Shown in pieces: positions 3,431 to 60,906 of a stretch of DNA of 64,000 nucleotides. A program made the translations under genes and the position numbers. Under the pieces are notes generated by a model. The model saw nothing but the letters and a program-made list of their open reading frames with translations. It did not search any database and was not told the origin of the DNA. The stretch is from Malacoraja senta (lineage: Eukaryota): contig CM075994.1 of assembly GCA_038087875.1 (NCBI GenBank), positions 620,001 through 684,000 of the forward strand. Reading direction: 5' to 3'. Numbering within the stretch: position 1 is the first letter of the stretch; every line of letters starts with the position of its first letter.

Positions 3431-4809
3431 GGAACGTATCCAATGCTTTTTTAAAAAACATTTCTTGGGATCCTAGGGTAACAGATGCAGGAAAAATGTT
3501 CCCGATGTTGGGAGAGTCCAGAACCAGGGGTCACAGTTTAAGAATAGGGGGTAGGCCATTTAGGACCGAGATGGGGGGGAATCTGTGAAAACGCACACCT
3601 CTAGATTCAGGGTCAGTTTCTTTCCAGCTGTTATCAGGCACCTGAATTGTGCTTCCACAACCAGAGTGGAGTCCTGAACTACTATCTACCTCAGTGATGA
3701 TCCTCGGATTATCCTTGAACGGACTTTGCTGGCTTTGCTTTGCACTGGGCGTTATTTCCTTATCATGTATCGGTACACTGCACATGGCTCGATTGCAATA
3801 ATGTATAGTCTTTCCGCTGCCCGGATAGCACACAACAAACGTTTTTCCACTGTACCTCAGTAGACGTGACAATAAACTAAACTGTAACTGTAATATTCTT
3901 CATACCTCTGCCATGGAAAAGATTATGTACATTCACCCTACCTATGCCTCTCAAGATTTTATTCAACCTTGTAGGATCACCCCCCGGTCTTCTACGGTTC
4001 AAGGAATGATCGCACATCCTGCCCGATCTCTCCCTAAAATGTCGCAAATATTCCTGCACCGATCAGTCCCAGTTCCTCAAGACTCCAGGATCAAAATAAA
4101 TCAAGTAAATGAGAAAAGACCAAAGATTCTTGTTTTAACAGTTGATTCCGAGCCAGTCTAGAGCACCAGTTCGGAATCCAACTTCTTCAGGTCTTAACCA
4201 GAAACATCACATTTTCCTTTTCTCCAGAGATGCTGCCTGACCCGTTGAGTTACTCCAGCACTTTCTGTCTATCTTCGATTTAACCCGGCATCTACAGTGC
4301 CTTCCCACACAACAGAATCGAACTATGGTTTGCAAGTATTCAGTAAGGAACACGGCGTTGTGAAGTGGGTGAAAGTATACAAGTGGAAGTGGGAACGCGT
4401 GAGATTGCCTGACCCATAAAACACTGGTACATTAAACCCAGCCTGAAAAACACGGACAAGAACAACAACAGCCTGTCAGAACCGATGTGTGTAATGGGAA
4501 ATGGTTACTGAAATCCCCATTCGATTCAATGTGCGACCAACTCAGCAACACAAAAGAGATGGAAAATGAGAACTCACAGCTTAAAGTTAGTGGATAGTCT
4601 GATAGATGAATGTAAAGTTTCATTACATTAACACCAATTGCATCATCTGTTTGTTTAAAGTGCCATGACTAATGTTAGTCGTTAGACAAACTAATTGAAT
4701 CACTGGAGATTTACGTCGGGTACAAATATAGGATTGTATTCACGTTGCTTGATCTGACTGTGGATCTGAGCACCCGAGTCCAGCAACATCGAGTCCCTGG
4801 GAGAGAGAG

Positions 4810-4879
4810 ATGAGTAGACTAATCCTTGTACAGATTAAGGCCGTTTTCTACCCTGTTCTCGTGGCGTTCGGGGTTCCAG
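4810..4879 (+). CDS. Exon 1 of a class A GPCR (GPR139-like family of cartilaginous fishes), MSRLILVQIKAVFYPVLVAFGVP plus 1 nt
   Basis: ATG at 4810, 70 nt open frame, donor CAG|GTGAGT at 4880. Phase 1 joins the acceptor at 6633 to give ...FGVP-A-NLLTVAIV (TM1). The same exon is conserved at 21067-21136. Confidence 0.88.
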
Positions 4880-6633: not shown

Positions 6634-7559
6634 CAAATTTACTGACGGTCGCGATTGTGATCCGGGGAAGGTGCGGACTCTCCAAATGCATCAGCCGCTA
6701 CCTGTTGTCCATGGCACTCGTCGACCTCATGGTCCTGATCGTTAACGTCACTCTCGAACTTATTACGCCCATGTACTTCCCAGGGTCATTCCTGGACATC
6801 ACATCAGTCTGCAGCCTCATCTTCTACCTGGGCGTGGTGGCCATTGATTGTTCTGTCTGGTTAACTGTTCTCTTCACCTTCGATAGGTTTATCGCTATTC
6901 GTTTCCAGAATTTTAAAGCGAAATACTGCACCGAGAAAATCGCGACTGTGATTATAACGTCAGTGTGCGTGATCAGCCTTGCACTGAACGTTGGTTTTTA
7001 CTTTATATTTGAACCGGCAAAAGTAATTGACAACATATCAATGTTCTGTGTTGTAAAATCCACCTTCTACAAATCGCCGCTCTGGGTGGCTTATTATTGG
7101 CTGCGGGTAGCATTAACCCCGTTGCTTCCGTTTGTGCTGATCGCGCTGCTCAACGCTCTGACCATCAGACACATCACCCGGGCCAGCAGAGTCAGGAGGG
7201 AACTCCGGGGCAGCGGGAAGGGCGAGAGTCACAGTGACCCCGAGATAGAAAACCGAAGGAAATCCATCGTTTTACTGCTCGCCATCTCGGGCAGCTTCAT
7301 CCTGCTGTGGGCGGTGAATGTGGTGCATAAAATCTGCATCAGTATCGCCGCTACTACTTCCTCCCTGAGACACATCACCGACACCCTCACAATCATTCGC
7401 ATGACGGGAATCATGCTGCAGTCTTTGAGCTCCTGCACCAACACGGTGATTTACGCAGTGGCGCAGACCAAGTTCAGAGCTGAGATGGTGAACCTGATTC
7501 AATTTCCCTTTGATCTGATGCAGACTATAATTAAACTCTGTGTGAAGAAATACATCTGA
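6634..7559 (+). CDS. Exon 2 of the GPR139-like 7TM receptor (spliced protein 331 aa)
   Basis: Polypyrimidine tract plus CAG acceptor at 6631-6633, then an open frame to TGA. Seven hydrophobic segments, TM2 LSMALVDL, TM3 TFDRF, ECL2 Cys, TM5 PLLP, TM7 NTVIY. The RGRCGLSKCISRYL and DPEIENRRKSIVLL motifs are typical of the elasmobranch GPR139-like expansion. Confidence 0.92.
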
Positions 7560-9527
7560 AATGTAACTCCTTAACGGGAAAAATCGCTCAGAGCTGCTTC
7601 TCGCTTCGGGGATGTAGACGTTGGAGGCACTGGCCAAACCGCGTTGCTGCTGTTTACGCATTATCTGCTCCGTTTCTGGAGCAGAAGGTTCCTCACTCTG
7701 GTACTGTGATCACATAGCTCTCCTCCCTCACCTCCACGCGGGGGGACCACATTCTCCACGTACCGTCCACATCTGAACTCCCCGGTTCATTTTCCCTTGA
7801 TCACCCCGAGCACTCAATCATTCCCGACGCCTTCCGGTCTTTAATCGTCTCTCTCGTGTCTCCCAGATTCCCCAAACCACCTTCCACCGATACAGTGCTC
7901 GCCTTGCCTGTTTTTAAAGAATCATTATTTCTCCTCGACAGCCGGGTAACAATGTAGAACTATATTCCCGTTCAGTCTACAGCTCTGAGCCCGATCACCC
8001 TGATTTAGACGCGATAATGTTGACACGGCGATCATGACAGGAGCCCCCTCGTGGCGATGCCTGGAAGCGACGACACGATGCACCCTGTGACGCGTCGGGC
8101 GAGAATTGTGTCAACATGTTGGACGACGACAGAAGCCAACAGCGATCTACATCGTCTGATACACGAACGAACGATTGTTGACACGAAGGACGGCAGAAGC
8201 CTGTTTACAAATAACTCACAAAGTGCTGGAGTAACTGGCAGCGTCGCTGGACAACACTCATAGACGACAATTCCGGCCGGGACCCTTCTACAAACTGGAT
8301 GTAGTCGGGGTGTGGGAGAAAATGAGGTGGGGCGAGATGGAGGCTGGCAAGTGATAGGTGGATACAGGCGTGGGGGGCTTTAGTTTGCAGACTGTTGGAC
8401 AAAGGCCAGTATTAGTTAAGGAGATAAGAATAGAAAAGCCGAGATATGTGAAGCTCGAGGAATGACTATCGGTGATAGGGACAGGGAGGGGGAGGGAGAA
8501 ATGTGTGAGCGTCCATTTGGAGTACTGGTCCAATATGTCTGCACAAAACGTCATAAGTGATAGGAATATCAAGTCTACTCCGCCATTCAATCATGGCTGA
8601 TCGTTCTCCCTCTCGTAACCCCATTCTTCTACCTTCTCCCCATAGCCCTTGACGCCCGTACTAATCGTGCATCTAGCTATCTCTGCCTTAAATATATAAA
8701 TTGACGTCCTCCACAGGGGCAAAATAATTCCACATTCACCTCCTTGTGACGAAACAAATTCCTTCTCATTTTCCCAACGGAACGACCTTTAATTCTCAGG
8801 CTCTGCTTTCTCGTCCGAGACTCTGCAACAAGTGAAAACATCCTCTCCGCATCCACTGTCCATTGAAATCAGCGGGTCGGATGCATCTGGGGTGGGAATG
8901 GACAGATGATGATTTATATGTCTGTACTCTCCTAGTGTCAGATGAGGAGTGAGGAGGAGGAGTGAAATGTAAAGCCGTAGGAAGGATATGGTTAGAAGGG
9001 AAGAGGTGGATCGGAAATGGGTTGGAGATCGGAGACACTGTGTGATTATCGACGATTGAATGCGTGTATTTAAGCTGGTGAGCAGTTCGGTACCGCACGG
9101 CTCTGCTCGGGGACCAGCCGTGTGCTTTTGTACAGAGATATATAAACCATGTGGATGTGAACGTTGGAGGCACGGATTGTTCGTTGGCCAAATGACAATA
9201 CTTATCAGTGTTGTCCAGGGTGGTGGGCACTGCCAAAGGACGCAATTGATCGGGTTAGTAAGATAGGTCGATGAATGGCGGATAGTAGTTCATACTGAAA
9301 ACTTAATTCATTTTGAGTACACAGATAGGTCGAGAATAAACACAATGCTTCGGCTAATCGTAGCAACTATTGGGGAGTAGAGGGACGTCTGCCTGCACGT
9401 CCATGGTCCCCTGAAAGCAGTAACGCCGGTAAATACGTTAGTAAAAAGCTTAACACGATGTTTCCCTTCATTAAAGGACATTAAGTGCTGGAGTAACTCA
9501 GCGGACCGGGCAGCATTCCTGGCGAGG

Positions 9528-21066: not shown

Positions 21067-23769
21067 ATGAGTAGACCAATCCTTGTACAAATTAAGGCCG
21101 TTTTCTACCCTGTTCTCGTGGGGTTCGGGGTTCCAGGTGAGTCGCGTTATCGCTTGTCAATGTGACTTCGTCTTTTGAGATTTCACCGGTCTTGTTCATT
21201 CGCGGTCAGTTTGTTTTAACAATGTTTTTTATCTGTCCCTGTAAATATGACTTACTGAGCTGAGGGGAGGGTTAAAATCAAGAGTCAAGAGGGTCAAGAG
21301 TGTTTTATTGTCATATGTCCTGGCTGGGACAATGAAATTCTTACTTGCTGCCGCACAACAGAATATGTGAATATGTAAACATTGTATATAACGGGGGGGG
21401 GGGGGGGGCGTGGGGGGAGGGAAAAGTTCGATAAATAACAAATATAGTAAATAATAATATAGTATTTAGCAGTTCAGAGCTCATAGCTTATTCGTTGTGT
21501 TTAATAGCCTGATGGCTGTGGGGAAGTAGCTGTTCCTGAACCTGGACGTTACAGTCTTCAGGCTCATGTACCCTCTTCCCGATGGCAATGGCGAGATGAG
21601 TGTGTGGCCAGGATGGTGTGGGTCCTTGATGATTTTTGCTGCCTTTTTGAGGCAGCGAATACGATAGATCCCTTCGACGGTGGGGAGGTCAAAGCCGGCA
21701 ATGGACTGGGCAGTGGTCACAACTTTTTGTAGTCTTTTTCGCTCCTGGACGTTCAAGTTGCCGAACTAGGCCACGATACAACCAGTCAGAATGCTCTCTA
21801 CCGTGCACCTGTAGAAGTTTAGGAGAATTCTCTTCGAAATGCCGAATCTCCATAATCTTCTCAGGAAGTAGAGTCGCTGATGTGCCAACTTTATGATTGC
21901 ATCGGTGTGCTGGGTCCAGGAAAGGTTTTCTGATATATGCACGCCCAGGAGAGCCTGTGAAATTACATGCTCCGTTGACCTGTTGAGGCGGTAAGCGAAC
22001 TGTAGTTGGTCGAGGTTCTTGTTGAGGTAGGAGTTGATGTGCATCATAACCAACCTCTCAAAGCACTTCATCACCACAGACGTTAGTGCCACCGGTCGAT
22101 AGTCATTGGGGCACGTCACCTTACATTTCTTGGGCACCGGTATTATTGATGCCCTCTTAAAGCAGGGGAGAACCTCAGACCTCAGACCTCAGACGTGAGA
22201 GGTTGAAAATGTCTGCAAAAACTCCAGTCAGTTGGTCTGCACAGGCCTTGAGAACTCGACCGGGTAAACGACCAGGTCCAGGCGCTTTCCGAGGGTTCAA
22301 CCCCCTGAAGGATCTTCTGACATTGGTCAGAGTAAGAAAACGAGAACGGGGGTTAGAGACCAACTGTATTTAGCTGGTTGTCGCGCTGATATCCTCCCGC
22401 CGTCCGCTGCTCCCACGCTCACTGTGTCTTGCTTTCTAACCAGTAAGGGAATGGGCTACGACGGGAAATGCGCCGCCCTCTCCCAGTCTCCCGCATTTCT
22501 CCTGACAGTCAATGGTAAACAAAATAGAGAACAGTGAGCTGGATATTCTTATCGAGATATCCAAGTCCGTAAACTGATTGTCCAAATCCAACGGGTGTAT
22601 GTTTATTTCTGCCTAATTCTGCTCCCATCACTTACGGCCGTCTGTCTTTATTTATTGTTTGTTGCAATTAAACCCCCCCACTCTGTCCTGGTGGCATTTA
22701 AACTCATCTATGTGGACCAAACTTTCACTCTACTGAATAATAGACCAATTGTACACCAACACTTCACCTCGCTTTCTTCCTCGCCTGTCCCTGCCCCTTG
22801 TTCTGATGACCATGTTTCTCACTTTTCAATTTCTTCCTTGCAGCAAATTTACTGACGGTCGCGATTGTGATCCGGGGAAGGTGCGGACTCTCCAAATGCA
22901 TCAGCCGCTACCTGTTGTCCATGGCACTCGCCGACCTCATGGTCCTGATCGTTAACGTCACTCTCGAACTCATTAAGCCCATGTACTTCCCAGGGTCATT
23001 CCTGGACATCACTCCAGTCTGCAGTCTCATCTTCTACCTGGGCGTGGTTGCCATTGATTGTTCCGTCTGGTTTACTGTTCTATTCACCTTCGATAGGTTT
23101 ATCGCTATTTGTTTCCAGAATTTTTAAGTGAAATATTGTACCGAGAAAATCGCGACTGTAATTATAACGTCAGTGTGCGTGATCAGCCTTTTACTGAACG
23201 TTGGTTTTTACTTTATATTTGAACCGGCAAAAGTAATTGACAATATACCAATGTTCTGTGTTGTAAAATCCACCTTCTACACATCGCCGCTCTGGGCGGC
23301 TTATTACTGGCTGCGGGTAGCATTGACCCCGTTGCTTCCGTTTGTGCTGATCGCGCTGCTCAACGTTCTGACCATCAGACACATCACCCGGGCCAGCAGA
23401 GTCAGGAGGGAACTCCGGGGCAGCGGGAAGGGTGAGAGTCACAGTGACCCCGAGATGGAGAACCGAAGGAAATCCATCGTTTTACTGCTCGCCATCTCGG
23501 GAAGCTTCATCCTGCTGTGGGCGGTGAATGTGGTGCATAAAATCTGCATCAGTATTACCGATGCTGTATTCTTTCAGAAATATGTCACCAACGTCTTCAA
23601 CATCATTAGGATAACGGGATTGATGCTGCAATCTTTGAGCTCCTGCACCAACACGGTGATTTACGCAGTGGCGCAGACCAAGTTCAGAGCTGAGATGGTG
23701 ACTCTAATTAAATCCCCCTATGATTTAATGCATAGTCTAACTAAACTCTGCTTAAATAAATGTATTTGA
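21067..23769 (+). pseudogene. Paralogous GPR139-like gene with a premature stop (exon 1 21067-21136, exon 2 22844-23769)
   Basis: Same exon lengths and splice sites as the first copy. AAA(K) is replaced by TAA at 23125-23127 (codon 118, just after DRF), which splits the ORF track into 22867-23127 and 23128-23769 in one frame. Confidence 0.88.
21281..22321 (-). mobile_element. Rex1/Babar-type LINE fragment in the intron of the GPCR pseudogene, internally deleted
   Basis: [35 protein letters not shown] and RFRNSYFPTAIRLLN motifs; (TCTTGAC)n tail; empty site at ~5020 in copy 1. Confidence 0.9.
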
Positions 23770-39494: not shown

Positions 39495-41157
39495 GGGCAG
39501 GCCACACAGCTCATTTCATTTCCATTTTAATTTCAAGCACAGGGCAGGCCGAACAGCTCATTGCATTTTCATTTCACTTCCATTGCCATTGCAGTTTCAA
39601 GCACATGGCAGGCCGAACAGCACTCCATTTTCATTTCACTTCCATTGCCATTACAGTTTCAAGCACAGGGCAGGCCGAACAGCTCACTGCATTTTCATTT
39701 CACTTCCATTGCCATTGCAGTTTCAAAGCACAGGGCGGGCCAAACAGCTCACTGCATTTTAATTTTACTTCCATTGCCATTGCAGTTTCAAAGCACAGGG
39801 CAGGCCAAACAGCTCACTGCATTTTCATTCCACTTTCATTGACATTGCAGTTTCAAAGCACAGGGCAGGCCGAACAGCATTCCATTTTCATTTCACTTCC
39901 ATTGCCATTGCAGTTTCAAGCACAGGGCAGGCCGAACAGCTCACTGCATTTTCATTTCACTTCCATTGCCATTGCAGTTTCAAGCCACAGGGCAGGCCGA
40001 ACAGCTCACTGCATTTTCATTTCACTTCCATTGCCAGTGCAGTTTCAAACCACAGGGCAGGCCGAACAGCTCATTGCATTTTCATTCCACTGCCATTGCC
40101 ATTGAAATTTCAAGCACAGGGCAGGCCAAACAGCTCACTGCATTTTCATTTCACTTCCATTGCCATTGCAGTTTCAAGCCACAGGGCAGGCCGAACAGCT
40201 CACTGCATTTTCATTTCACTTCCATTGCCAGTGCAGTTTCAAACCACAGGGCAGGCCGAACAGCTCACTGCATTTTCATTCCACTGCCATTGCCATTGAA
40301 GTTTCAAGCACAGGGCAGGCCAAACAGCTCACTGCATTTTCATTTCACTTCCATTGGCATTGCAGTTTCAAGCCACAAGGCAGGCCAAACAGCTCACTGC
40401 CTTTTCATTTCACTTCCATTGCCAGTGCAGTTTCAAACCACAGGGCAGGCCGAACAGCTCACTGCATTTTCATTTCACTTCCATTGCCATTGCAGTTTCA
40501 AAGCACAGGGCAGGCCAAACAGCTCACTGCATTTTCATTTCACTTCCATTGGCATTGCAGTTTCAAAGCACAGGGCAGGCCAAACAGCTCACTGCATTTT
40601 CTTTTCACTTCCATTGCCATTGCAGTTTCAAAGCACAGGGCAGGCCGAACAGCTCACTGCATTTTCATTTCATATCCATTGACATTGCAGTTTCAAAGCC
40701 CAGTGCAGGCCAAAGAGCTCTTTGCATTTTCATTTCATTTTCAGCTCATTTCCATTGCCATTACAGTTTCAATGTACAGAGCAGGTGAAACAGCTTATTG
40801 CATTTCATCTAATTTCCATTGCCATTGCAGTTTCAAGCGCAGGGCACGCCAAACAGCTGATTGCATTTTCATCTAATTTCCATTGCCATTGCAGTTTCAA
40901 GCCACAGGGCAGCACAAACAGCTCACTGCATTTTCATTTCACTTCCATTGTCAGTGTAGTTTCAAACCACAGGGCAGGCCCGAACAGCTCACTGCATTTT
41001 CATTTCACTTCCATTGTCATTGCAGTTTCAAAGCACAGGACAGGCCAAACAGCTCACTGCATTTTCTTTTCACTTCCATTGCCATTGCAGTTTCAAAGCA
41101 CAGGGCGGGTCCAAACAGCTCACTGCATTTCATTTCACTTCCATTGCCATTGCAGAT
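39495..41157. repeat. 64-65 bp tandem satellite, left part (~25 units)
   Basis: Unit AAAGCACAGGGCAGGCCAAACAGCTCACTGCATTTTCATTTCACTTCCATTGCCATTGCAGTTTC repeated head to tail. Confidence 0.97.
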
Positions 41158-44100
41158 TCATAGAAACATAGAAACATAGAAAATAGGTGCAGGAGGAGGC
41201 CATTCGGCCCTTCGAGCCAGCACCGCCATTCATTGTGATATTGGCTGATCGTCCCCTATCAATAACCCGTGGCTGCCTTCTCCACATATCCCTCGATTCC
41301 ACTAGCCCCTAGAGCTCTATCTAACCCTCTCTTAAATCCATCCAGTGATTTGGCCTCCACTGCCCTCTGTGCCAGGGAATTCCATAAATTCACAACTCTC
41401 TGGGTGAAAAAGTTTTTTCTCACCTCAGTCTTAAATTACCTCCCCTTTATTCTAAGACTGTGGCTCCTGGTTCTGGACTCGCCCAACATTGGGAACATTT
41501 TTCCTGTATCTAGCCAGTCCTTTTATAATTTTATATGTTTCTATAAGATTTCCCCTCATCCCTCTAAACTCCAGTGAAATAAGCCTAGTCTTTTCAATCT
41601 TTCCTCATATGACAATCCCGCCATCCCAGGGATCAATCTCGTGAACCTACGCTGCACTGCTTCAATCACAAGGATGTCCTTCCTCAAATTAGGAGACCAA
41701 AACTGTACACAATACCCCAGATGTTGTCTCACCAGAGCCCTATACATATGCAGAAGAACCTCTTTACTCCTATCCTATGAGATAACGACCCCCTATCTAT
41801 TTAATTTATATACTTACGTTTTTAAAGAAAATAAACTACCTGAAACATTAGCAGAATCAACTATTACGCTTATTCCAAAGAAAGATAAAGATCTAGAGGA
41901 ACCGGGCTCTTATAGAGCTATATCACTTTTAAATACAGACCAGAAAAATTCTAGCAAAGACTTTAGCTAGAAGACTAAGCAAATATATTAGTAAATTGAT
42001 AAACCCTGATCAAACGGGGTTTATACCCAAAAGATATTCATTTAATAATTTGAGACGCCTGTTTAATATAATGTACTCACATAAAGTGGAGGAAAAAGAC
42101 TTAGCAATTATTTCTTTGGATGCAGAGAAAGCATTTGATCAGGTAGAATGGCAGTACTTATACAAAGTATTACAAAAATTTAATATGCGAGAGAATTTAT
42201 TGCATGGGTGAAATTATTATATGATAAACCGATGGCAAGAATATTAACTAACAGCATGTTATCTCAAAAATTTCAATTATCAAGGGGTAATAGGCAGGGA
42301 TGTGCTTTATCACCCCTGCTATTTACCCTTATGATAGAACCTCTGGCTGAAAGTATAAGAAGCCATCCGAATATTCAGGGTTATAATACTAGGGACTCAA
42401 ATAATAAAATTTCATTGTATGCAGACGATATTTTGTTATATATAACAAATTCACAAACGAGCATACCAAATTTATTAAATTTAATAGAGGAATTTGGGTC
42501 CTTTTCTGGATATAGAATAAACTGGAACAAAAGTGAAATCATGACGTTAAAACCTCAAGAATCCACACACTTATTGAAATTCCCCCTTTAAAATAGCAAC
42601 AGAAAAATTCAAATATTTGGGTATTCAGATTACTAGAAAACATAAAGCTTTATTTAATGCCAATTTTATACCCTTAATAAATAAACTTAATATAATGATA
42701 ACATTTTGGAAAACACTCCCTTTATCATTAATAGGCAGAATAAATGCTATTAAAATGAGCTTCCTACCACAGTTATTATACCTATTTCAATCTATACCAG
42801 TATATGTACCAAAATATTTTTTTTCTAAACTGAACGCTAATATTACTAATTTTGTTTGGGATTATAAATCACATAGAATTAAAAAAGAACACTTATGTAA
42901 ACCAAAAGATGTCGGGGGACTTTCACTCCCAAATTTTTTGTATTACTATTGGGCAATACATATTAAGAATATAATTTACTGGTTGGATAGTTCAACTCAA
43001 CAGACAGAATGGATAAAAATGGAGAAAGAGGATTGTTATCCTTGTAATATAGGAACAATCCTCTTCTCCCCGAAAAAAATGAACAATACAATATATCAGA
43101 AAAACCCAATTATACAAGATACAATAAGAATATGGAAACAAATAAAATTATCCTTAAAATTAAGAAACCTATCATTGTTAACACCGATAGCGAATAATCC
43201 TTTATTTAAACCATCTATGATGGATAAAATATATAATCAATGGGAAAGTTTAGGAATTAAAAGGATCGGGGACATGTATGAAATGGGAGATTTATTATCA
43301 TTTCAACAATTACAATTAAAATTTAAACTGAAAAACACTCATGATTTTAAATATTTTCAGATTTGTAATTTTTTGAAGACATACATACAGGGATATCAAA
43401 AAATAACTCCTGATTTACTAGAAGAAGTAATGAATATAAAAGCTGATACACAAAAATTAATATCATATTTATATAATAGTATCTTAAATATAGATTTACC
43501 TGTGACCGAGGTAATTAGAGAAGAGTGGGAACGGGAATTACGAAGGCTACATGGGAAAAGTATTTGACATACATTCACAAGTGTTCGATTAACGCAAGAC
43601 ATAATCTAATCCAATTTAAAATTTTACTTAGATTATATTACTCAAAAACAAGATTAAATAAATTTTATCCAAATATATCGCCCATTTGCGATAAATGTTT
43701 AACCCAAGACGCAACTATAACACACTCTTTTGTTTCTTGTATAAAACTTCATGGATTTTGGAGTGATATTTTCAAAATATTTACAAAACTATTTAAGACA
43801 AAAATGGAACCCAATAATGAATTGATTATATTTGGGGTAATGGAAGACGGGAACAAATTGAGCTCATCTCAAAAGTCAATTTTTAATTATGGTTTAATAA
43901 TAGCAAAAAAATTAATATTGAAATTTTGGAAAAATACACCAATACGAACGCTCAAAATGTGGATTGCAAGTATGTTGGATACCGCACATCTTGAGGAAAT
44001 GCGATTCCTCCTAATAGATAAATTTGACCAATTCATAACGAGTTGGTCTCCATTTGTCGTCTTTTTGGAAACATATGGTGCAAAACAGGTGTAAAAGCTA

Positions 44101-45030: not shown

Positions 45031-46040
45031 TTCAAAGCACAGGACAGGCCAAACAGCTCACTGCATTTTCCTTTCCTTTCCATTGCCATTGCAGTCTCAT
45101 AGCCCAGGCCAGGCCAAACAGCTCACTGCATTTTCATTTCACTTCCGTTGCCATTGAAGTTTCAAAGCACAGGGCAGGCCGAACAGCTCACTGCATTTTC
45201 ATTTCACTTCCATTGCCATTGAAGTTTCAAAGCACAGGGCAGGCCGAATAGCTCACTGCATTTACATTTCACTTCCATTGCCATTGCAGTTTCACAGCAC
45301 AGGGCAGGCCGAACATCTCACTGCATTTTCATTGCATTTCCATTGCCATTGCTGTTTCAAAGCACAGGGCAGGCCAAAGAGCTCTTTGCATTTTCATTTC
45401 ATTTACATGGCCATTGCAGTTTCAAAGCACAGTGCAAGCCAAATAGCTCATTGCATATTCATCTCATTTCATTGCCATTGCAGTAGCAAAGCACAGGGCA
45501 GGCCAAACAGCTCATTGCATTTTCATCTCATTTCCATTGGCATTGCAGTTTCACAGCACATGGCTGGCCAAACAGCCCATTGCATTTTCATCTCATTTCC
45601 ACAGCCATTGCAGTTTCAATGTACAGGGCAGGTCAAACAGCACATTGCATTTTCATCTCATTTCCATTGCCATTGCAGTTTCAAAGCACGGGCAGGCCAA
45701 TGAGCTGATTGCATTTTCATCTAATTTCCATTGCCATTGCATTTTCAAAGCACAGGGCAGGCCAAACAGCTGATTGCATTTTCATTTCATTTCTATTGCC
45801 ATTGCAGTTTCAAAGCACAGGGCAGGCCAAACAGCTGATTGCATTTTCATTTAATTTCCATTGCAGTTACAAAGCACAGGGCAGGCCAAACAGCTCATTG
45901 GATTTTCATTTAATTTCCATTGCCTTTGCAGTATCAAAGCGCAGGGCAGGCCAAACAGCTCATTGCATTTTCATCTCATTTCCATTGCCACTGCAGTTTC
46001 AAAGCACAGGGCTGGCCAAACAACTCATTTCATTTTCATT
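45031..46040. repeat. 64-65 bp tandem satellite, right part (~15 more diverged units)
   Basis: Same unit and orientation as 39495-41157. Confidence 0.95.
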
Positions 46041-54286: not shown

Positions 54287-54994
54287 ACACATATATTCTG
54301 CTTCCAGTTCCAGGCTAGAAGAGGTGAGAGAAATGAAAAGTCTTCAGAAGAGTCAGGCAAAACAGTGCAGTATTTACAGAGTACTCTGGTCCACTGAATA
54401 CAGAATAATGTGTCTGGATCTCTTTGAGATGCATTTATCAACATTGAGAGTGTGCTATTTATCATACCTGGGTCACCGGTTCTTCTCTGCTTGTAGTACT
54501 GGTATCTAACCAGGTGATGGCGGTGTCGTGCAGTTTCAGAGTGTGGACCTGCAGCTGCCCCTGACTGTGGAGACTGCAGATGCTGGAATCCCGAGCAAAG
54601 GTTAAACTGCTGGAAGAATTCTGTGGGTCAGGCAGCATCTGTGGAAGCAGAAGAATGGTCGATGTATCGGGTTGAGACGCTGCGTTTCAATGCCACTCTT
54701 GGGTGCACCACAACTCGATCTGAACACTAGTTCTTTTCCCCGAAGATAGACACAAAATGCCGGAGTAACTCATAATATTTCAAAATATGTCATCTCATTT
54801 AGTCAATTGACAGTGCATCAGAATGAGTCTTAACTGAGACTTCCGGTGGCGCTATGGAGGCTTGAGCCCAGCGTCAACTAGCTCCGTGCTGAAAAATCCG
54901 AAAACGGGAGAAAAATCGGGACCTACCTGAGGCGATTGCGAATTGAACTGCTGCCTGCTGCGAGTGACGTCATCAGGCGTGCGACTTTACCGGT

Positions 54995-56059
54995 ATGTCG
55001 ATACAACATACCCCCCCCAGGGTGACAAAAAAAGCCGGTAAAGCGAGACAACCGACGGAAGAGGTAGGCCCAACCGAGGCCTCGGCCTCAGGTACAACGA
55101 TGCTCCAGGAAGACCCATCGAAGAAACCAAAGCAAAAAAAATCTGAAATGGAAGAACTTAAAAACTTTATCTCCAATGAGATAAAAAATATTCAAACACA
55201 GCTGAAAACCTTTGAAGGAAAGCTGAATTTTAAAGAGGAACTTAAAGAGGAACTTAACTCTTTTAAGGTAGATTTTAAAGCAGAAATGCTCTCTACCGTT
55301 CAGGATATATTGGAAATCTGGAAGAGGTCGAGGGACGAAGAGGTCAAAGATCAGATGGAAGAGGTGGAAGGCAGGATCGCTTTGGTGGAATCGAGCCTTA
55401 AGGGAGAGATTGACCCTATCCTTCAGACACTGAAGCAACATATTATAGCGATAACTGAACTTGAGAGATGTGTGGCGACAAATGCGGAAACTGTAAATCG
55501 ACTCCTTACCGAAAATCAACGCCTCTCCGAAATGGTGACTAAATTAAGTGGAAAGTGTATCGACCTGGAGGGGCGTCAAAGACGCCAGAACTTAAGAATT
55601 GTAGGTGTGAAAGAAGGAAGTGAGAGGGATATGGGCACTCGGGATTTTGTGGCAGATCTACTACAAAAAGCCTTAAAGTTGGATCAAAAACCTGTACTTG
55701 GTCGAGCACATAGAGCGCAGGGGCGTCGTACACGAGATGATGCCTACCCAAGACAAATTATAGTAAAGGTGCAACTTGATTATGAATTTGACGAGATAAT
55801 GAAGAAAATTGCCCGTACCAGAGACCTCTCTTTTGAAGGAGTGAGGATCAGTATCTACAGAGACTACCTGGAGGTCTTCAAGAAAAGAGCGCTGTTTACT
55901 GAGACAAAAAGAATACTGAAGAATATAGCAAATTTGAGATACGGCTGGCTTTATCCCGCAACATTAAGAGTCACCTACATGAGCAAGGAGCAATTTTTTA
56001 CAGACCATGAAAAAGCACTGGAATTCGCCAAAGACATCGGGAATGTGACCGCAGACTGA
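54995..56059 (+). CDS. L1 ORF1p (coiled coil, RRM, CTD), 354 aa, open
   Basis: LEGRQRRQNLRIVGVKEG, RAHR, PRQIIVK, ISIYRDY and LYPATLRV motifs. Confidence 0.9.
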   Translation: MSIQHTPPRVTKKAGKARQPTEEVGPTEASASGTTMLQEDPSKKPKQKKSEMEELKNFISNEIKNIQTQLKTFEGKLNFKEELKEELNSFKVDFKAEMLSTVQDILEIWKRSRDEEVKDQMEEVEGRIALVESSLKGEIDPILQTLKQHIIAITELERCVATNAETVNRLLTENQRLSEMVTKLSGKCIDLEGRQRRQNLRIVGVKEGSERDMGTRDFVADLLQKALKLDQKPVLGRAHRAQGRRTRDDAYPRQIIVKVQLDYEFDEIMKKIARTRDLSFEGVRISIYRDYLEVFKKRALFTETKRILKNIANLRYGWLYPATLRVTYMSKEQFFTDHEKALEFAKDIGNVTAD

Positions 56060-57089
56060 ACAATATACATCACTCCTCAGGAGTCAAGGAATAACGGGAC
56101 CTCGCCAGGTCTAAAAGGATCTTTAAAGTACTTTTAAGAGCTTTAAGGACGTTTGAAAATTGAAATGGACATTGGAGAAAACCTGGGTTTTTTTGCTTCT
56201 CGTTTTTTAATTTTTTTTTTAAATTTCTCCTAATATCTCTAATTTTTTTAAATTATTCATTCTTCTTGTTTAGTATAAATTCTAAGAACAATAATATCAC
56301 AGTTATGATCAATTGCTACTAATCACTATTATTATTTAGTATTTTCATATTTAACCATACATGTAACTAGTAATACTTATTAAATATCATTATTACTATT
56401 AAAATTACTAAATCTATATTATTCATAAATATTTTTACCGTGTATGAATAATAACAATGATTAATAACTAACAGTTTCTGGTTAACGTAGAAATAGATTA
56501 CATACATATATTCCATAGGAATATAAGTAAGAGGTAATTTAGCCCATGTATTAATAAGGGTTGATGGTTTTCCTCTTTATTTTTCAATTAAAAATTAAAA
56601 ATACATACTTAAAGAAGATATTAATATGGTATTTAGAGAATAATAACGTTGTTAACTTTTACTGTTGTTTACCTTTTTTGGGTTTTTGAAAAGAAAACAA
56701 AAATTTTGCAACTCCCAAAGAAGTTATTTGATTGTTAGAAATATCATCTTTTTAAAAAAAAATTTTTAGCGCGGAGCTAGGATTTTTTTCTTTTACAAAG
56801 GCTACGGAAGTCTTTAGAATTCTAGCCATGCTAGTGTGGCTAACACTAACTACACTAATTGTAGTTGTAGTTTTTTTTCTTTCACCCTATACTAATCAAC
56901 TATATCACTTTTTTCACTTTAATTATTGTTATAATTTTAAGTTTGAATGGAACTACAAGGTTAATTCAAGGAGATGTGTTCAGAGGAGCGAAGTATGTTA
57001 TTTAAAATTCATCTATCTGAGGTTCGGGGACAAGGTCAGGTTTTATGTGTTGTACCTTCTCCTCGGCTATAGACCACCCTAGAAACAAT

Positions 57090-60000
57090 ATGCAAGATGG
57101 TAATATGACAAGAGGGGGTGAAGGAATAACGTTTTGTAGTTTGAATGTTAAGGGAATTAATGAACCAATTAAGAGAGGTAAAGTTTTAACACATTTAAAT
57201 TCACTCAAGACAGATATAATATTCCTCCAAGAAACACACCTTAAAAAGGAATCACAATATAGACTAAAAGCTAAGTGGATCGCTGAATCGTATCATGCCT
57301 CTTTTTCACACAAGTCCAGAGGAGTTGCAATATTAATTCGTAAAGGAATACCTTTTACACATTCCTCAACAATAGCGGATATAGATGGTAGATATATTAT
57401 ATTAGTTGGAGAGTTAAATGGGATAAAAGTGATTCTTCTTAATGTATATGGACCTAATTTTGATAATCCTATGTTTTTTAATAAAACATTTAATATAATC
57501 CCAGAATTTACACAATATAAATTAATAATTGGAGGAGATTTCAATTGTACATTAGACTCTTATTTAGATAGATCATCAAGGCAAAAAAAAGTAAAATCTC
57601 AATCAAGTGTATTTTTAAATTCATTTATTAATACCACTAATATTAAGGATGTCTGGAGAATTGAAAACCCAACTGGACGGGAATACTCATTTTACTCACC
57701 GGTACATAAAACATACTCAAGAATAGATTATTTTTTAGTCGACTCCACGTTTATCCCATTTACTTATAACTCAAAATACCATAATATTATAATCTCAGAC
57801 CACGCACCAGAAACATTTATGATTAAATTAAATGTAATGTCCGAGAAACAAACATATTGGAGATTTAACCCACAAATATTGAATGAAAGATCATGTCAGG
57901 AATATCTTATTAAACAGATGCAAACATTTTTCGAGGCAAATGACAACCCTGACACATCTGTCTCTCTTATTTGGGAAACATTTAAAGCGTTTGTCCGAGG
58001 CGCATTAATTTCTGCCCAAATATTTTATAACAAAGAGAACCGGATTAAACAACAAACACTGGACAGGGAAATAAAGCAACTAGATATAGAAAATGCGAGA
58101 ATGCCATCTATGTTAAAACATAACAAAATTGCTGTACTGAAATATAAACTAAACAAAATGTATTCAGAACAAGTAATAAAACTTTATCAACATACTAAAC
58201 AATTACATTTTGAGTTTGGAGACAAACCACAAAAACTATTAGCACGTCAGCTACGAAAAATGGAGGGGGAAAAAATAATTCATAAAATTAGAGCAGATAC
58301 AGGAGAATTATTAAAATTGCCCAAGGATATAAACGAGAGATTTCTCCAATACTATCATAATCTTTACTCAACTAAAACTGTAGTACAACCAGAAGGAATA
58401 GCAGATTTTTTACAAAAATGTAATTTAAAAGGTTTAGATTCAAAAGATAGAGAATTATTAGAAGCGGAGATTACGATAAAAGATATTGAAGAGTCTATTG
58501 GATCTTTAAAAAATGGTAAAGCAGTAGGACCAGATGGTTTAGGCTCTGAATTCTATAAAAAAAAATTATGATTTGCTTTCTCCACGTTTACAAATGCTGT
58601 ATGAACATATTTATACTCAACAGAAACTTCCAGATACCTTAAATGAATCTATAATAACACTTATTCCTAAAGCTGATAAGGATCCGGAAGATCCAGGATC
58701 ATATAGAGCAATTGCACTTTTAAATACAGATCAGAAAATACTAACAAAAATTTTAGTGCACAGATTAAGTACAGTGATGAATAAACTAATACACCCTGAC
58801 CAAACAGGTTTTATTCAGAAGCGGTATTCATATTACAATCTAAGAAGATTATTTAATATAATATATTCAAAGAGAAATATTAATGAAGATCTAGCAATAA
58901 TCTCACTCGATGCTGAAAAAGCTTTTGATCAGGTGGAATGGCCCTATTTATTTTCGGTGATGGAAAAATTGCAGCTGGGCGAAAAATTTTGTGCATGGAT
59001 AAAACTGTTATATACAAACCCTACGGCTAGAATATTAACAAACCAAAGGTTATCATCTAAATTTAACCTATCTAGAGGTTGTAGACAAGGATGCCCGTTG
59101 TCTCCATTATTATTTGCGCTTGTTATAGAGCCACTCGCCGAAAGAGTCAGGACCCATCCGGAAATATATGGGTATAACACAAAGGATACAGTGAATACAA
59201 TTTCTTTATACGCAGATGATGTATTAATTTACATTACAAAACCAGAAATTAGTATTCCAAATTTATTAAAGCTAATAACCCAATTTGGTTCACTCTCAGG
59301 ATACAGAATAAATTGGAATAAAAATGAAATTATGCCAATAAGGGAACATAATAAACATATAATACAACAATTTCCATTTAAAATAGTAAATGAAAAATTT
59401 AAATACCTAGGCATTTATGTTACTAAGACCTATACATCATTATTTAAAGCAAACTTTCCCCCATTACTGAACAAACTACATAAGAATATTCAGTATTGGA
59501 AAACACTTCCTATCTCAATGGTTGGCAAAATTAATGCCATAAAAATGATTTTCTTACCGCAAATATTATACCTTTTTCAAACAATTCCGATATACTTGTC
59601 AAAAAACCTTTTTAAAAAGTTAGATTCCATTGTCAGTGACTTTATCTGGGATTATAAGAATCATAGGATAAGCAAAAAACATCTGTGCAAATCAAAAATA
59701 AATGGAGATTTGGTTTTACCAAACTTTTTGTTTTATTTTTGGGCAGTTAACATTAAAAATATGAATTTTTGGTTGGAAGAAATAGATCAACAACCAGATT
59801 GGTTAAAAATGGAAAAGGAAGATTGCTCACCTTTTGAAATCGGCTCGATACTATTTGCTACTTCTAAATTAAATTAAAAAATTTATAGGGAAAATCCTAT
59901 AATATATAGTACTATGCGAATTTGGAAACAATTAAAAAAGACATTAAAACTAGATAATTTATCACTTTTTCTTCCAATTGCGAATAACCCTTTGTTTAAG

Positions 60001-60906
60001 CCCTCATGGTTGGACAAAGGTTTCACACAATGGAAAAACTATGGAATTAAAAAGATGGGACAACTTTATAAGGAAGGCACTTTTCTTTCATTTCAGGAGT
60101 TGCAACAGATTTATGGACTTCAAGTAAATGATTTTTTCAGATATCTCCAACTTAGAGATTACGTAAAAGCAAATACTCGAAATTTTAGAATTAGAAATTC
60201 AGAAATTTTTGACGACTGTTGGAATAAACATCCTAATACAGAAAAACTAATATCTTATATATATAATATTTTATTAGACAGTGATATTCCATTGACGGAC
60301 TTACACAGACAAACTTGGGAAAAAGAACTAAATCAAATAATAACGAAAGATACTTGGGAAGAAAGTTTACAACACATACATCAATGTTCATTAAATGCCA
60401 GACATTCTCTAATACAATTCAAAGTAATACATAGGTTACATTATTCAAAAACAAAATTACATAAAATCTTTCAACATATCTCACCTATATGTGATAAATG
60501 TCAACATTTAGAAGCTAACTTATCTCATATGTTTGCAAATTGCATAAAAATTAAAAATTTCTGCGTAAATATTTTCACAATAATATCTAAAGTGACTAGC
60601 ATTCAATTGGACCCGGATCCAAAATTAATAATACTTGGAACATTAGAACTAAATCAAACATTTACATCAACTCAAAGAAACGTTATTGATTATAGTATAA
60701 TAACTGGGAAAAAATTAATTCTAAAATTTTGGAAAGGCCCTATAACCCCCACAATCAAAATGTGGATTATAGAAATGACGGAGACCTTACACTTGGAAAG
60801 AATTAGACTTGTCCTGTTGGACAAACAGGAACTATTCGTCGGAACATGGTCTCCCTTTATTGACTATTTAAAGGGTCAGAATGGTTCAGCACAAGAACCT
60901 GACTAA
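57090..60906 (+). pseudogene. L1 ORF2 (APE endonuclease, RT, CCHC) with two lesions
   Basis: SLNVKGI, FLQETHL, GGDFN, SRIDYF, SDHAP, DAEKAFD, QGCPLSP and YADDV motifs; +1 frameshift in the A-run at ~58556-58565; in-frame TAA at 59875-59877. Confidence 0.93.

What the first reader, a model, noticed from the sequence alone, without database searches (positions are those of the whole stretch)
7341..7412. GPR139-like paralogues are homogenised in TM5-TM6 but hypervariable in ECL3
Seen: by-eye alignment of the two exon 2 copies (offset 16210) gives about 5 differences in 7141-7340 but about 25 in the next 70 nt (AATTSSLRHITDTLT vs TDAVFFQKYVTNVFN), with no indels or stops; the C-tail also diverges. 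Known: ECL3 and the top of TM6/TM7 line the ligand entrance of class A GPCRs, and GPR139 itself senses aromatic amino acids. Inference: gene conversion of the core plus diversifying selection or loop swapping, as in chemosensory or immune receptor repertoires. This could be a poorly characterised elasmobranch receptor repertoire.
Basis: partly seen in the sequence, partly recalled or inferred. Interest (0 to 1): 0.78.

Follow-up and report, generated by a model that had tools for sequence, protein, structure and literature searches.

The report
Conversion-proof loop in skate receptor pair
Two neighbouring skate receptor genes are nearly identical except for a short stretch at the predicted mouth of the binding pocket that follows gene type across skate species, likely because selection protected it from gene conversion; one copy is broken here, and both belong to a family of roughly a thousand or more receptor genes of untested, possibly chemosensory, function.

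Summary
Counts confirmed: copies A and B differ at 5/200 bases in 7141-7340 and 26/72 in 7341-7412; 0 of 20,000 permutations reach this. The block is not hypervariable but old and dimorphic. In three skate genomes the TM1-TM6 core groups by species, while the block and C-tail group by gene type; AU tests reject each tree on the other region. Synonymous divergence is also raised in the block (dS 0.41 vs 0.09), and dN/dS 1.4 is not significantly above 1. This is a conversion-resistant divergence island, like red/green opsin exon 5. The genes are not GPR139 orthologues (24% identity to the skate GPR139). They belong to a family with 1,069 and 937 exact motif hits in this assembly. One young clade shows positive selection mostly at pocket residues; ECL3 is not a family-wide hotspot. 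Expression and ligands are untested. This scan found the large family before in other genomes (three notes); eight literature searches found no description.

The parts
4810..4879 (+). Gene A exon 1 (Met to mid-TM1, 23 codons plus 1 base, GT donor)
   Evidence: tblastn with family N-termini; spliced frame open with one terminal stop
4648..4697 (+). Candidate proximal promoter motifs of gene A (forkhead-like at -162, homeodomain-like at -118 from ATG)
   Evidence: motifs chosen after seeing the promoters, weak evidence
6634..7559 (+). Gene A exon 2, intact class A GPCR (7tm_1), A-type
6634..7345 (+). Homogenised core (TM1-TM6), groups by species across skates
7344..7412 (+). Type-specific divergent block: end of TM6, ECL3, top of TM7 (exon-2 codons 237-259)
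7413..7490 (+). Second homogenised stretch (TM7 to helix 8), 1/78 differences A vs B
7491..7559 (+). Type-specific C-tail; the A and B 3' flanks lose homology after the stop
21067..21136 (+). Gene B exon 1
22844..23769 (+). Gene B exon 2, B-type, pseudogene
23125..23127 (+). Premature TAA in ICL2 of gene B
   Evidence: spanned without difference by one contig of run X2
23554..23622 (+). B-type version of the divergent block

Best explanation
A and B are tandem skate paralogues of a very large GPR139-related receptor family whose TM1-TM6 core groups by species, as repeated gene conversion would cause, while a 23-codon block at the predicted pocket mouth (ECL3 and top of TM7) keeps an old A-versus-B split, likely because conversion there would have erased a difference in ligand specificity and was selected against. 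Shown: the reciprocal tree conflict, the older synonymous age of the block, homogenised sequence on both sides, conservation of each block type between skate species, and recent breakage of both B-type copies in this assembly. Inferred: conversion as the mechanism, selection as the reason the island persisted, and the block as a specificity determinant. The C-tail stays type-specific probably because it abuts non-homologous 3' flanks. The family most likely works as a birth-and-death sensory repertoire (chemosensory, about even odds); this is inferred from copy number, pocket-focused selection in one clade and weak promoter motifs.
For: Quartet A, B, LeA (P0001), LeB (P0002): 6 species-grouping sites, all in codons 1-236, and 18 type-grouping sites, all in 238-304; 1 cross site. 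Ten sequences from three skate genomes: the core rejects the type tree (dlnL 54.6, p-AU 1.4e-6) and the block rejects the species tree (dlnL 51.1, p-AU 3e-37); block distance 0.17-0.19 within type and 0.68-0.73 between types. A vs B: dS 0.09 in the core, 0.41 in the block, 0.06 in TM7, 0.97 in the tail; core vs block+tail synonymous Fisher p=4e-5; TM7 P=0.001 if as old as block+tail. TM7 synonymous sites are not frozen family-wide (0.425 vs 0.55). Between types the block has dN/dS 1.25-1.58, against 0.26-0.36 in the tail; B vs B' block 0.29. Published signature: a divergence peak amid conversion marks selected sites in opsins (PMC3924837, passages). Clade X (30 of 39 copies after removing near-duplicates): pocket pN/pS 2.03 (CI 1.17-3.23) vs 0.41 for other TM sites; M2a vs M1a 2dlnL 83.7, 5 of 7 selected sites in the pocket set; holds in both gene halves with separate trees.
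Against: Block dN/dS is not significantly above 1 (Fisher p=0.78), so selection on this block is not directly shown. Both B-type copies are broken here and no further B-type copy was found, so the difference is not being maintained now in this genome. TM7 homogenisation is not significant for pairs with B' (P=0.24-0.28, alignment near a deletion). Gene A carries changes at otherwise conserved sites (exon-2 codons 29, 57, 135), and core dN/dS among the four copies is 0.28-0.70, which hints at relaxed constraint. Clade Z site test is not significant (p=0.12), and clade Y looks neutral with no pocket excess. PHI-like tests found no recombination signal in clades X, Y or Z, and none of 835 close pairs in the sample has an island as strong, so the pattern is not family-wide. 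The pocket set and helix numbering are recalled conventions, not computed from the model. No expression data.
Confidence: 0.6

Rival explanations
1. Neutral relic: the block is a remnant of old A/B divergence near the 3' edge of homology; once diverged it blocks pairing, so conversion tracts stop there without any selection on ligand specificity.
For: dS is raised with dN and dN/dS is not above 1 significantly; homology ends right after the stop codon; B copies are pseudogenes here; B vs B' also has old synonymous differences in block and tail (5/18, 3/16).
Against: Divergence is not monotonic towards the 3' edge (2.5%, 36%, 1.3%, 29%). The island sits exactly on ECL3 and the TM7 top. Between-type dN/dS is about 1.4 in the block and about 0.3 in the tail, though this contrast was not tested for significance and rests on few sites. 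The initial divergence still needs a cause.
Confidence: 0.27
2. Ongoing hypervariability: the loop is under continuing diversifying selection or cassette-like swapping, as in immune receptors.
For: A vs A' has 4 non-synonymous and 0 synonymous changes in the block; A-type codons 245-246 show 4 and 3 states in 5 sequences; P0123 looks like a B/C mosaic inside the block; within-type cross-species block distance 0.17 vs core 0.09; ECL3 site 240 is selected in clade X.
Against: B vs LeB differ at 1/23; the types persist across species; the ECL3 window ranks 13, 155 and 244 of 285 in clades X, Z and Y.
Confidence: 0.11
3. Assembly artefact: chimeric consensus between paralogues creates the mosaic.
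For: Fragmented assembly (6,182 contigs) with duplicate haplotigs.
Against: The same mosaic occurs on contig C3422 and in RefSeq proteins of two other skates; contigs of runs X2 and X3 match the B block with 0 differences (records 14 and 22).
Confidence: 0.02

Closest known systems
Red/green opsin exon 5 divergence peak under gene conversion (also RHD/RHCE, protocadherin clusters)
   Same: Tandem duplicates homogenised by conversion, with a local peak of divergence at the specificity-bearing region (PMC3924837, passages read). Opsins are class A GPCRs too.
   Different: The functional sites are proven for opsins and untested here; here the island is inside one exon with coding sequence homogenised on both sides, and one partner is a pseudogene.
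GPR139 (and paralogue GPR142), class A orphan receptors
   Same: Best sequence match among solved structures (E 2e-11); same phase-1 intron just before Asn1.50 and very short N-terminus; RefSeq names the relatives 'probable G-protein coupled receptor 139'.
   Different: The skate GPR139 orthologue lies elsewhere (G000:C5, one motif hit) and is 24% identical to A. The fold search ranks GPR139 14th among similar peptide receptors. Aromatic amino-acid sensing (recalled) cannot be transferred.
Vertebrate chemoreceptor repertoires (OR, TAAR, ORA/V1R, V2R)
   Same: Hundreds to over a thousand clustered copies on many contigs, birth-and-death turnover, short N-terminus, pocket-focused positive selection in one clade, compact TATA promoters with some homeodomain and O/E-like motifs.
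   Different: Different lineage (nearest named relatives are GPR139 and FMRFamide-receptor-like clusters); one coding intron; sensory expression not shown. The catshark is reported to have only 5-8 OR, ORA and TAAR genes each (PMC6368271, abstract).

Membership tests
Class A (rhodopsin) GPCR | 7tm_1 above curated cutoff, seven helices | tested here: met
   77.7 bits vs 30.5; seven TM helices plus helix 8, pLDDT 82.6, model of orthologue P0122
GPR139 orthologues | High identity to, and 1:1 relation with, the genome's GPR139 | tested here: not met
   separate locus; A 24% identical; 16 of 16 family representatives 22-35% over their best local alignment
GPR139/GPR142-related group | GPR139 best sequence hit among structures and shared intron position | tested here: met
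GPR139/GPR142-related group | Supported phylogenetic sister relation to GPR139/GPR142 | not tested
   no tree with outgroup receptors was built
GPR139/GPR142-related group | Activation by L-Trp or L-Phe (recalled) | not testable with these tools
   needs an assay
Divergence island under gene conversion | Flanking region groups by species, island by paralogue | tested here: met
Divergence island under gene conversion | Homogenised sequence on both sides of the island | tested here: met
   met for A/B and A'/B, not significant for pairs with B'
Divergence island under gene conversion | Island residues cause a functional difference | not testable with these tools
   needs chimeric receptor assays
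Hypervariable loop under diversifying selection | dN/dS significantly above 1 in the block | tested here: not met
   1.38, p=0.78
Hypervariable loop under diversifying selection | Family-wide ECL3 excess | tested here: inconclusive
   ECL3 pN/pS 1.94 (CI 0.79-3.66) in X, 0.52 in Z, 0.45 in Y; block ranks 15 of 277 windows among 16 old lineages
Chemosensory receptor repertoire | Large clustered multigene family | tested here: met
Chemosensory receptor repertoire | Positive selection on pocket residues | tested here: inconclusive
   significant in clade X only (1 of 3 clades); pocket-enriched but not significant by site model in Z; absent in Y
Chemosensory receptor repertoire | Olfactory-type promoter (homeodomain plus O/E sites) | tested here: inconclusive
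   strict motifs enriched (5/13 vs 1.1; 4/13 vs 0.6), loose motifs not (7/13 vs 4.4; 4/13 vs 2.5); post hoc choice
Chemosensory receptor repertoire | Sparse expression in sensory neurons | not testable with these tools
   no RNA holder listed; catshark atlas supplement unreadable

The most novel reading that the evidence does not exclude
Sharks, skates and rays carry an undescribed chemosensory receptor family of about a thousand genes, derived from the GPR139 branch independently of OR, TAAR, V1R and V2R, which would overturn the view that they have small smell-receptor repertoires. The skate A/B pair is then a natural chimera experiment that maps ligand specificity to 16 residues of ECL3 and the TM7 top on a nearly constant scaffold.
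Probability: 0.4. Interest if true: 0.92.

Novelty: new variant of a known kind. Interest (0 to 1): 0.64.

Why it matters
The island itself is a new example of a known process. Its value is practical: two receptor types that share about 95% of their core and differ in one pocket-mouth block are the cleanest pair for finding ligands and specificity rules in this family. The family is the larger point. Two motifs count 1,069 and 937 copies in one skate assembly, where published shark repertoires of the classic class A smell receptors are a handful of genes. If sensory expression is shown, this answers how cartilaginous fishes smell with so few known receptors. If the expression is immune or gut, it is still an unusually large orphan GPCR expansion.

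Tried and rejected
Expression: no RNA holder listed; run X1 (RNA is a guess) has a contig that runs into the intron, so it is not evidence of a transcript. Whether A's unusual substitutions occur in other samples stays open, as no read data were laid on A. The catshark atlas supplement could not be read and may hold expression values for this family; Teshima and Innan 2008 was not held and is cited only through PMC3924837. PHI-like recombination tests in clades X, Y, Z were negative. Fold search did not single out GPR139. Atlas search gave only the family's own clusters and FMRFamide-receptor-like relatives. C3422 as a simple haplotig of the window was rejected: collinear flanks are mostly 80-87% identical with different insertions, while other duplicates in the sample are within 0.3%; a very deep haplotype is not excluded. 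No further family member was found in C18:580001-714000. Rows dropped: of 129 places, 90 were fetched; 3 (L003 stop, L004 and L071 short) were left out of family alignments; near-duplicates were removed, leaving X 30 of 39, Y 11 of 12, Z 8 of 11. Promoters: exon 1 was found in 21 of 23 upstream regions, and 13 unrelated ones were tested. P0003 was left out of the AU tests. The GPR139 structure search and the passages gave no residue list, so the pocket set stays recalled. Complex prediction and the representative search were not used.

Full report
Observation. The window holds two copies of a two-exon class A GPCR gene: A (exon 1 4810-4879, exon 2 6634-7559) and B (21067-21136, 22844-23769). 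At offset 16210 they differ at 24/507 bases in 6634-7140, 5/200 in 7141-7340, 26/72 in 7341-7412, 1/78 in 7413-7490 and 21/72 in 7491-7562. The peak was reached in 0 of 20,000 permutations. An AlphaFold model of an A-type orthologue (P0122, 79-sequence alignment, pLDDT 82.6) puts TM6 up to exon-2 codon 238, ECL3 at 239-249 and TM7 from 250, so the block covers the loop and the top of TM7. One contig of run X2 spans it unchanged; that run may be the source sample.

Other copies. The assembly has a second A/B pair on C3422: A' is intact apart from a stop two codons early, and B' has a 13-base deletion in TM7. DNA searches with each block found only these four full-length matches (lower bounds). 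Both B-type copies are therefore broken, by different lesions. RefSeq proteins give A-type genes in Leucoraja erinacea (P0001) and Amblyraja radiata (P0121, P0122), B-type genes in L. erinacea (P0002, P0123, P0124) and a third type (P0003).

What the block is. In the quartet A, B, P0001, P0002, all 6 sites that group by species lie in codons 1-236, and all 18 that group by gene type lie in 238-304; one site fits neither. With ten sequences, the core rejects the type tree (p-AU 1.4e-6) and the block rejects the species tree (p-AU 3e-37). Among the four copies in this assembly, 31 of 33 type-diagnostic bases lie at or after 7347. Synonymous divergence A vs B is 0.09 in the core, 0.41 in the block, 0.06 in TM7 and 0.97 in the tail; upstream intron and exon 1 differ at 5-15 per 100 bases over full bins. 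So the block is older than its surroundings, which is what conversion of the surroundings predicts. It is not hypervariable: B differs from P0002 at 1/23 residues and from A at 16/23. Its dN/dS of 1.38 is not significantly above 1 (p=0.78).

Why it persisted. A published model reads a divergence peak amid conversion as a mark of selection against conversion, shown for red/green opsin exon 5 (PMC3924837, passages). In favour here: the island coincides with the pocket mouth; TM7 just downstream is homogenised (1/24 synonymous differences, while these sites vary at 0.425 among 16 old lineages); and between-type dN/dS is 1.25-1.58 in the block against 0.26-0.36 in the tail. Against: the TM7 result is not significant for pairs with B'; homology ends just after the stop, so a neutral 3' boundary explains the tail and perhaps more; B is dead in this genome; A has changes at conserved sites. 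I put the selected island at 0.6, the neutral relic at 0.27 and ongoing hypervariability at 0.11. The last has some support from A-type codons 245-246 and the apparent B/C mosaic P0123.

The family. A protein search of the assembly scored 129 of 3,328 candidates, all at 48% identity or more, and 118 of the 129 without an internal stop (biased to best scores). Two independent motifs give 1,069 and 937 exact hits against 1 and 0 for reversed controls. On contigs C1-C16, 44 of 89 and 95 listed hits pair up, which scales to a union near 1,500; this includes haplotigs (87 sampled genes collapse to 71 at 0.3%) and pseudogenes. The protein database holds 2,130 clusters at E<=1e-20; 118 of the 120 listed carry elasmobranch names and 2 carry none. 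These are not GPR139 orthologues: the skate GPR139 is a separate locus, 24% identical to A, but it shares the phase-1 intron before Asn1.50. GPR139 is the best sequence hit among solved structures and ranks 14th by fold.

Selection in the family. I used 41 pocket positions fixed beforehand from recalled Ballesteros-Weinstein conventions. In clade X (30 copies) pocket pN/pS is 2.03 (CI 1.17-3.23), other TM sites 0.41 and intracellular sites 0.29; 0 of 20,000 permutations match the pocket excess. My own M1a/M2a implementation (branch lengths fixed up to a scale) gives 2dlnL 83.7 and omega 6.5 on 4% of sites; 5 of 7 sites are pocket (2.57, 3.32, 5.38, 5.42, 7.43), one is ECL3 and one ECL2. These sites carry 3-6 amino-acid states, and the test holds in each gene half with its own tree. 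Clade Z (8 copies) has a pocket excess but no significant site test (p=0.12); clade Y (11 copies) looks neutral. ECL3 is not a general hotspot, PHI-like tests are negative, and none of 835 close pairs in the sample matches the A/B island.

Function. Untested. No RNA holder was listed. The motifs are recalled and were chosen after viewing the sequences, and O/E sites are also used in B cells (own knowledge), so this is a weak lean towards olfactory use.

Literature and novelty. Eight searches (listings only) returned no paper whose title or abstract start describes this family. Passages of the catshark sensory genome paper (PMC11979771) and of a chemoreceptor review (PMC12294341) do not mention it; the former's supplement could not be read, and most subscription journals are not held. 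The abstract of PMC6368271 reports 5-8 receptors each for OR, ORA and TAAR in the catshark. Three earlier notes of this scan describe the large family in other genomes; none on conversion was returned.

Verdict. The feature is real. It is a conversion-resistant, type-specific block rather than a hypervariable loop, in a pair whose B member is broken here. The island is a new case of a known process; the thousand-copy family around it is the novel part, and its role is still inferred. Interest 0.64.

Noticed in passing
window 22451-22514; RefSeq P0001, P0002, P0124: Three little-skate RefSeq models begin with a peptide that matches intron sequence here, not the TM1-coding exon 1 at 21067-21136 used by P0122 and P0123; probably a mis-predicted first exon, though a GT donor follows it.
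   Followed up: partly
G000:C3422:26810-27701: Decayed, frameshifted family pseudogene (about 40% identity) downstream of B', with no counterpart found in the window.
   Followed up: no
L007, L012, L014-L016, L018, L053, L056, L057, L075, L097, L100 (clade Y): Young tandem clade with overall pN/pS 1.19 and changes at conserved positions 2.50 and 7.49; looks like relaxed expansion.
   Followed up: partly
G000:C15:11.03-11.12 Mb and G000:C1:111.4-112.1 Mb: Dense tandem arrays of family motifs: 20 TM7 hits in about 85 kb on C15 and 23 TM3 hits in about 650 kb on C1.
   Followed up: no
window 54968-60906: Near full-length L1-like LINE with an ORF1-like frame and an ORF2-like frame broken into pieces; described only.
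   Followed up: no
window 39507-41163 and 45031-46040: Two arrays of a tandem repeat of about 65 bases, 85-89% alike (self-BLAST offsets).
   Followed up: no
window 7344-7412 against family: Both skate types have lost most of the ECL3/TM7 motif common in the family (5/23 and 6/23 identity to the majority, against 14-21/23 in 11 of 16 lineages), including a Glu-to-Arg change near the TM7 top, which suggests a ligand shift in this clade.
   Followed up: partly
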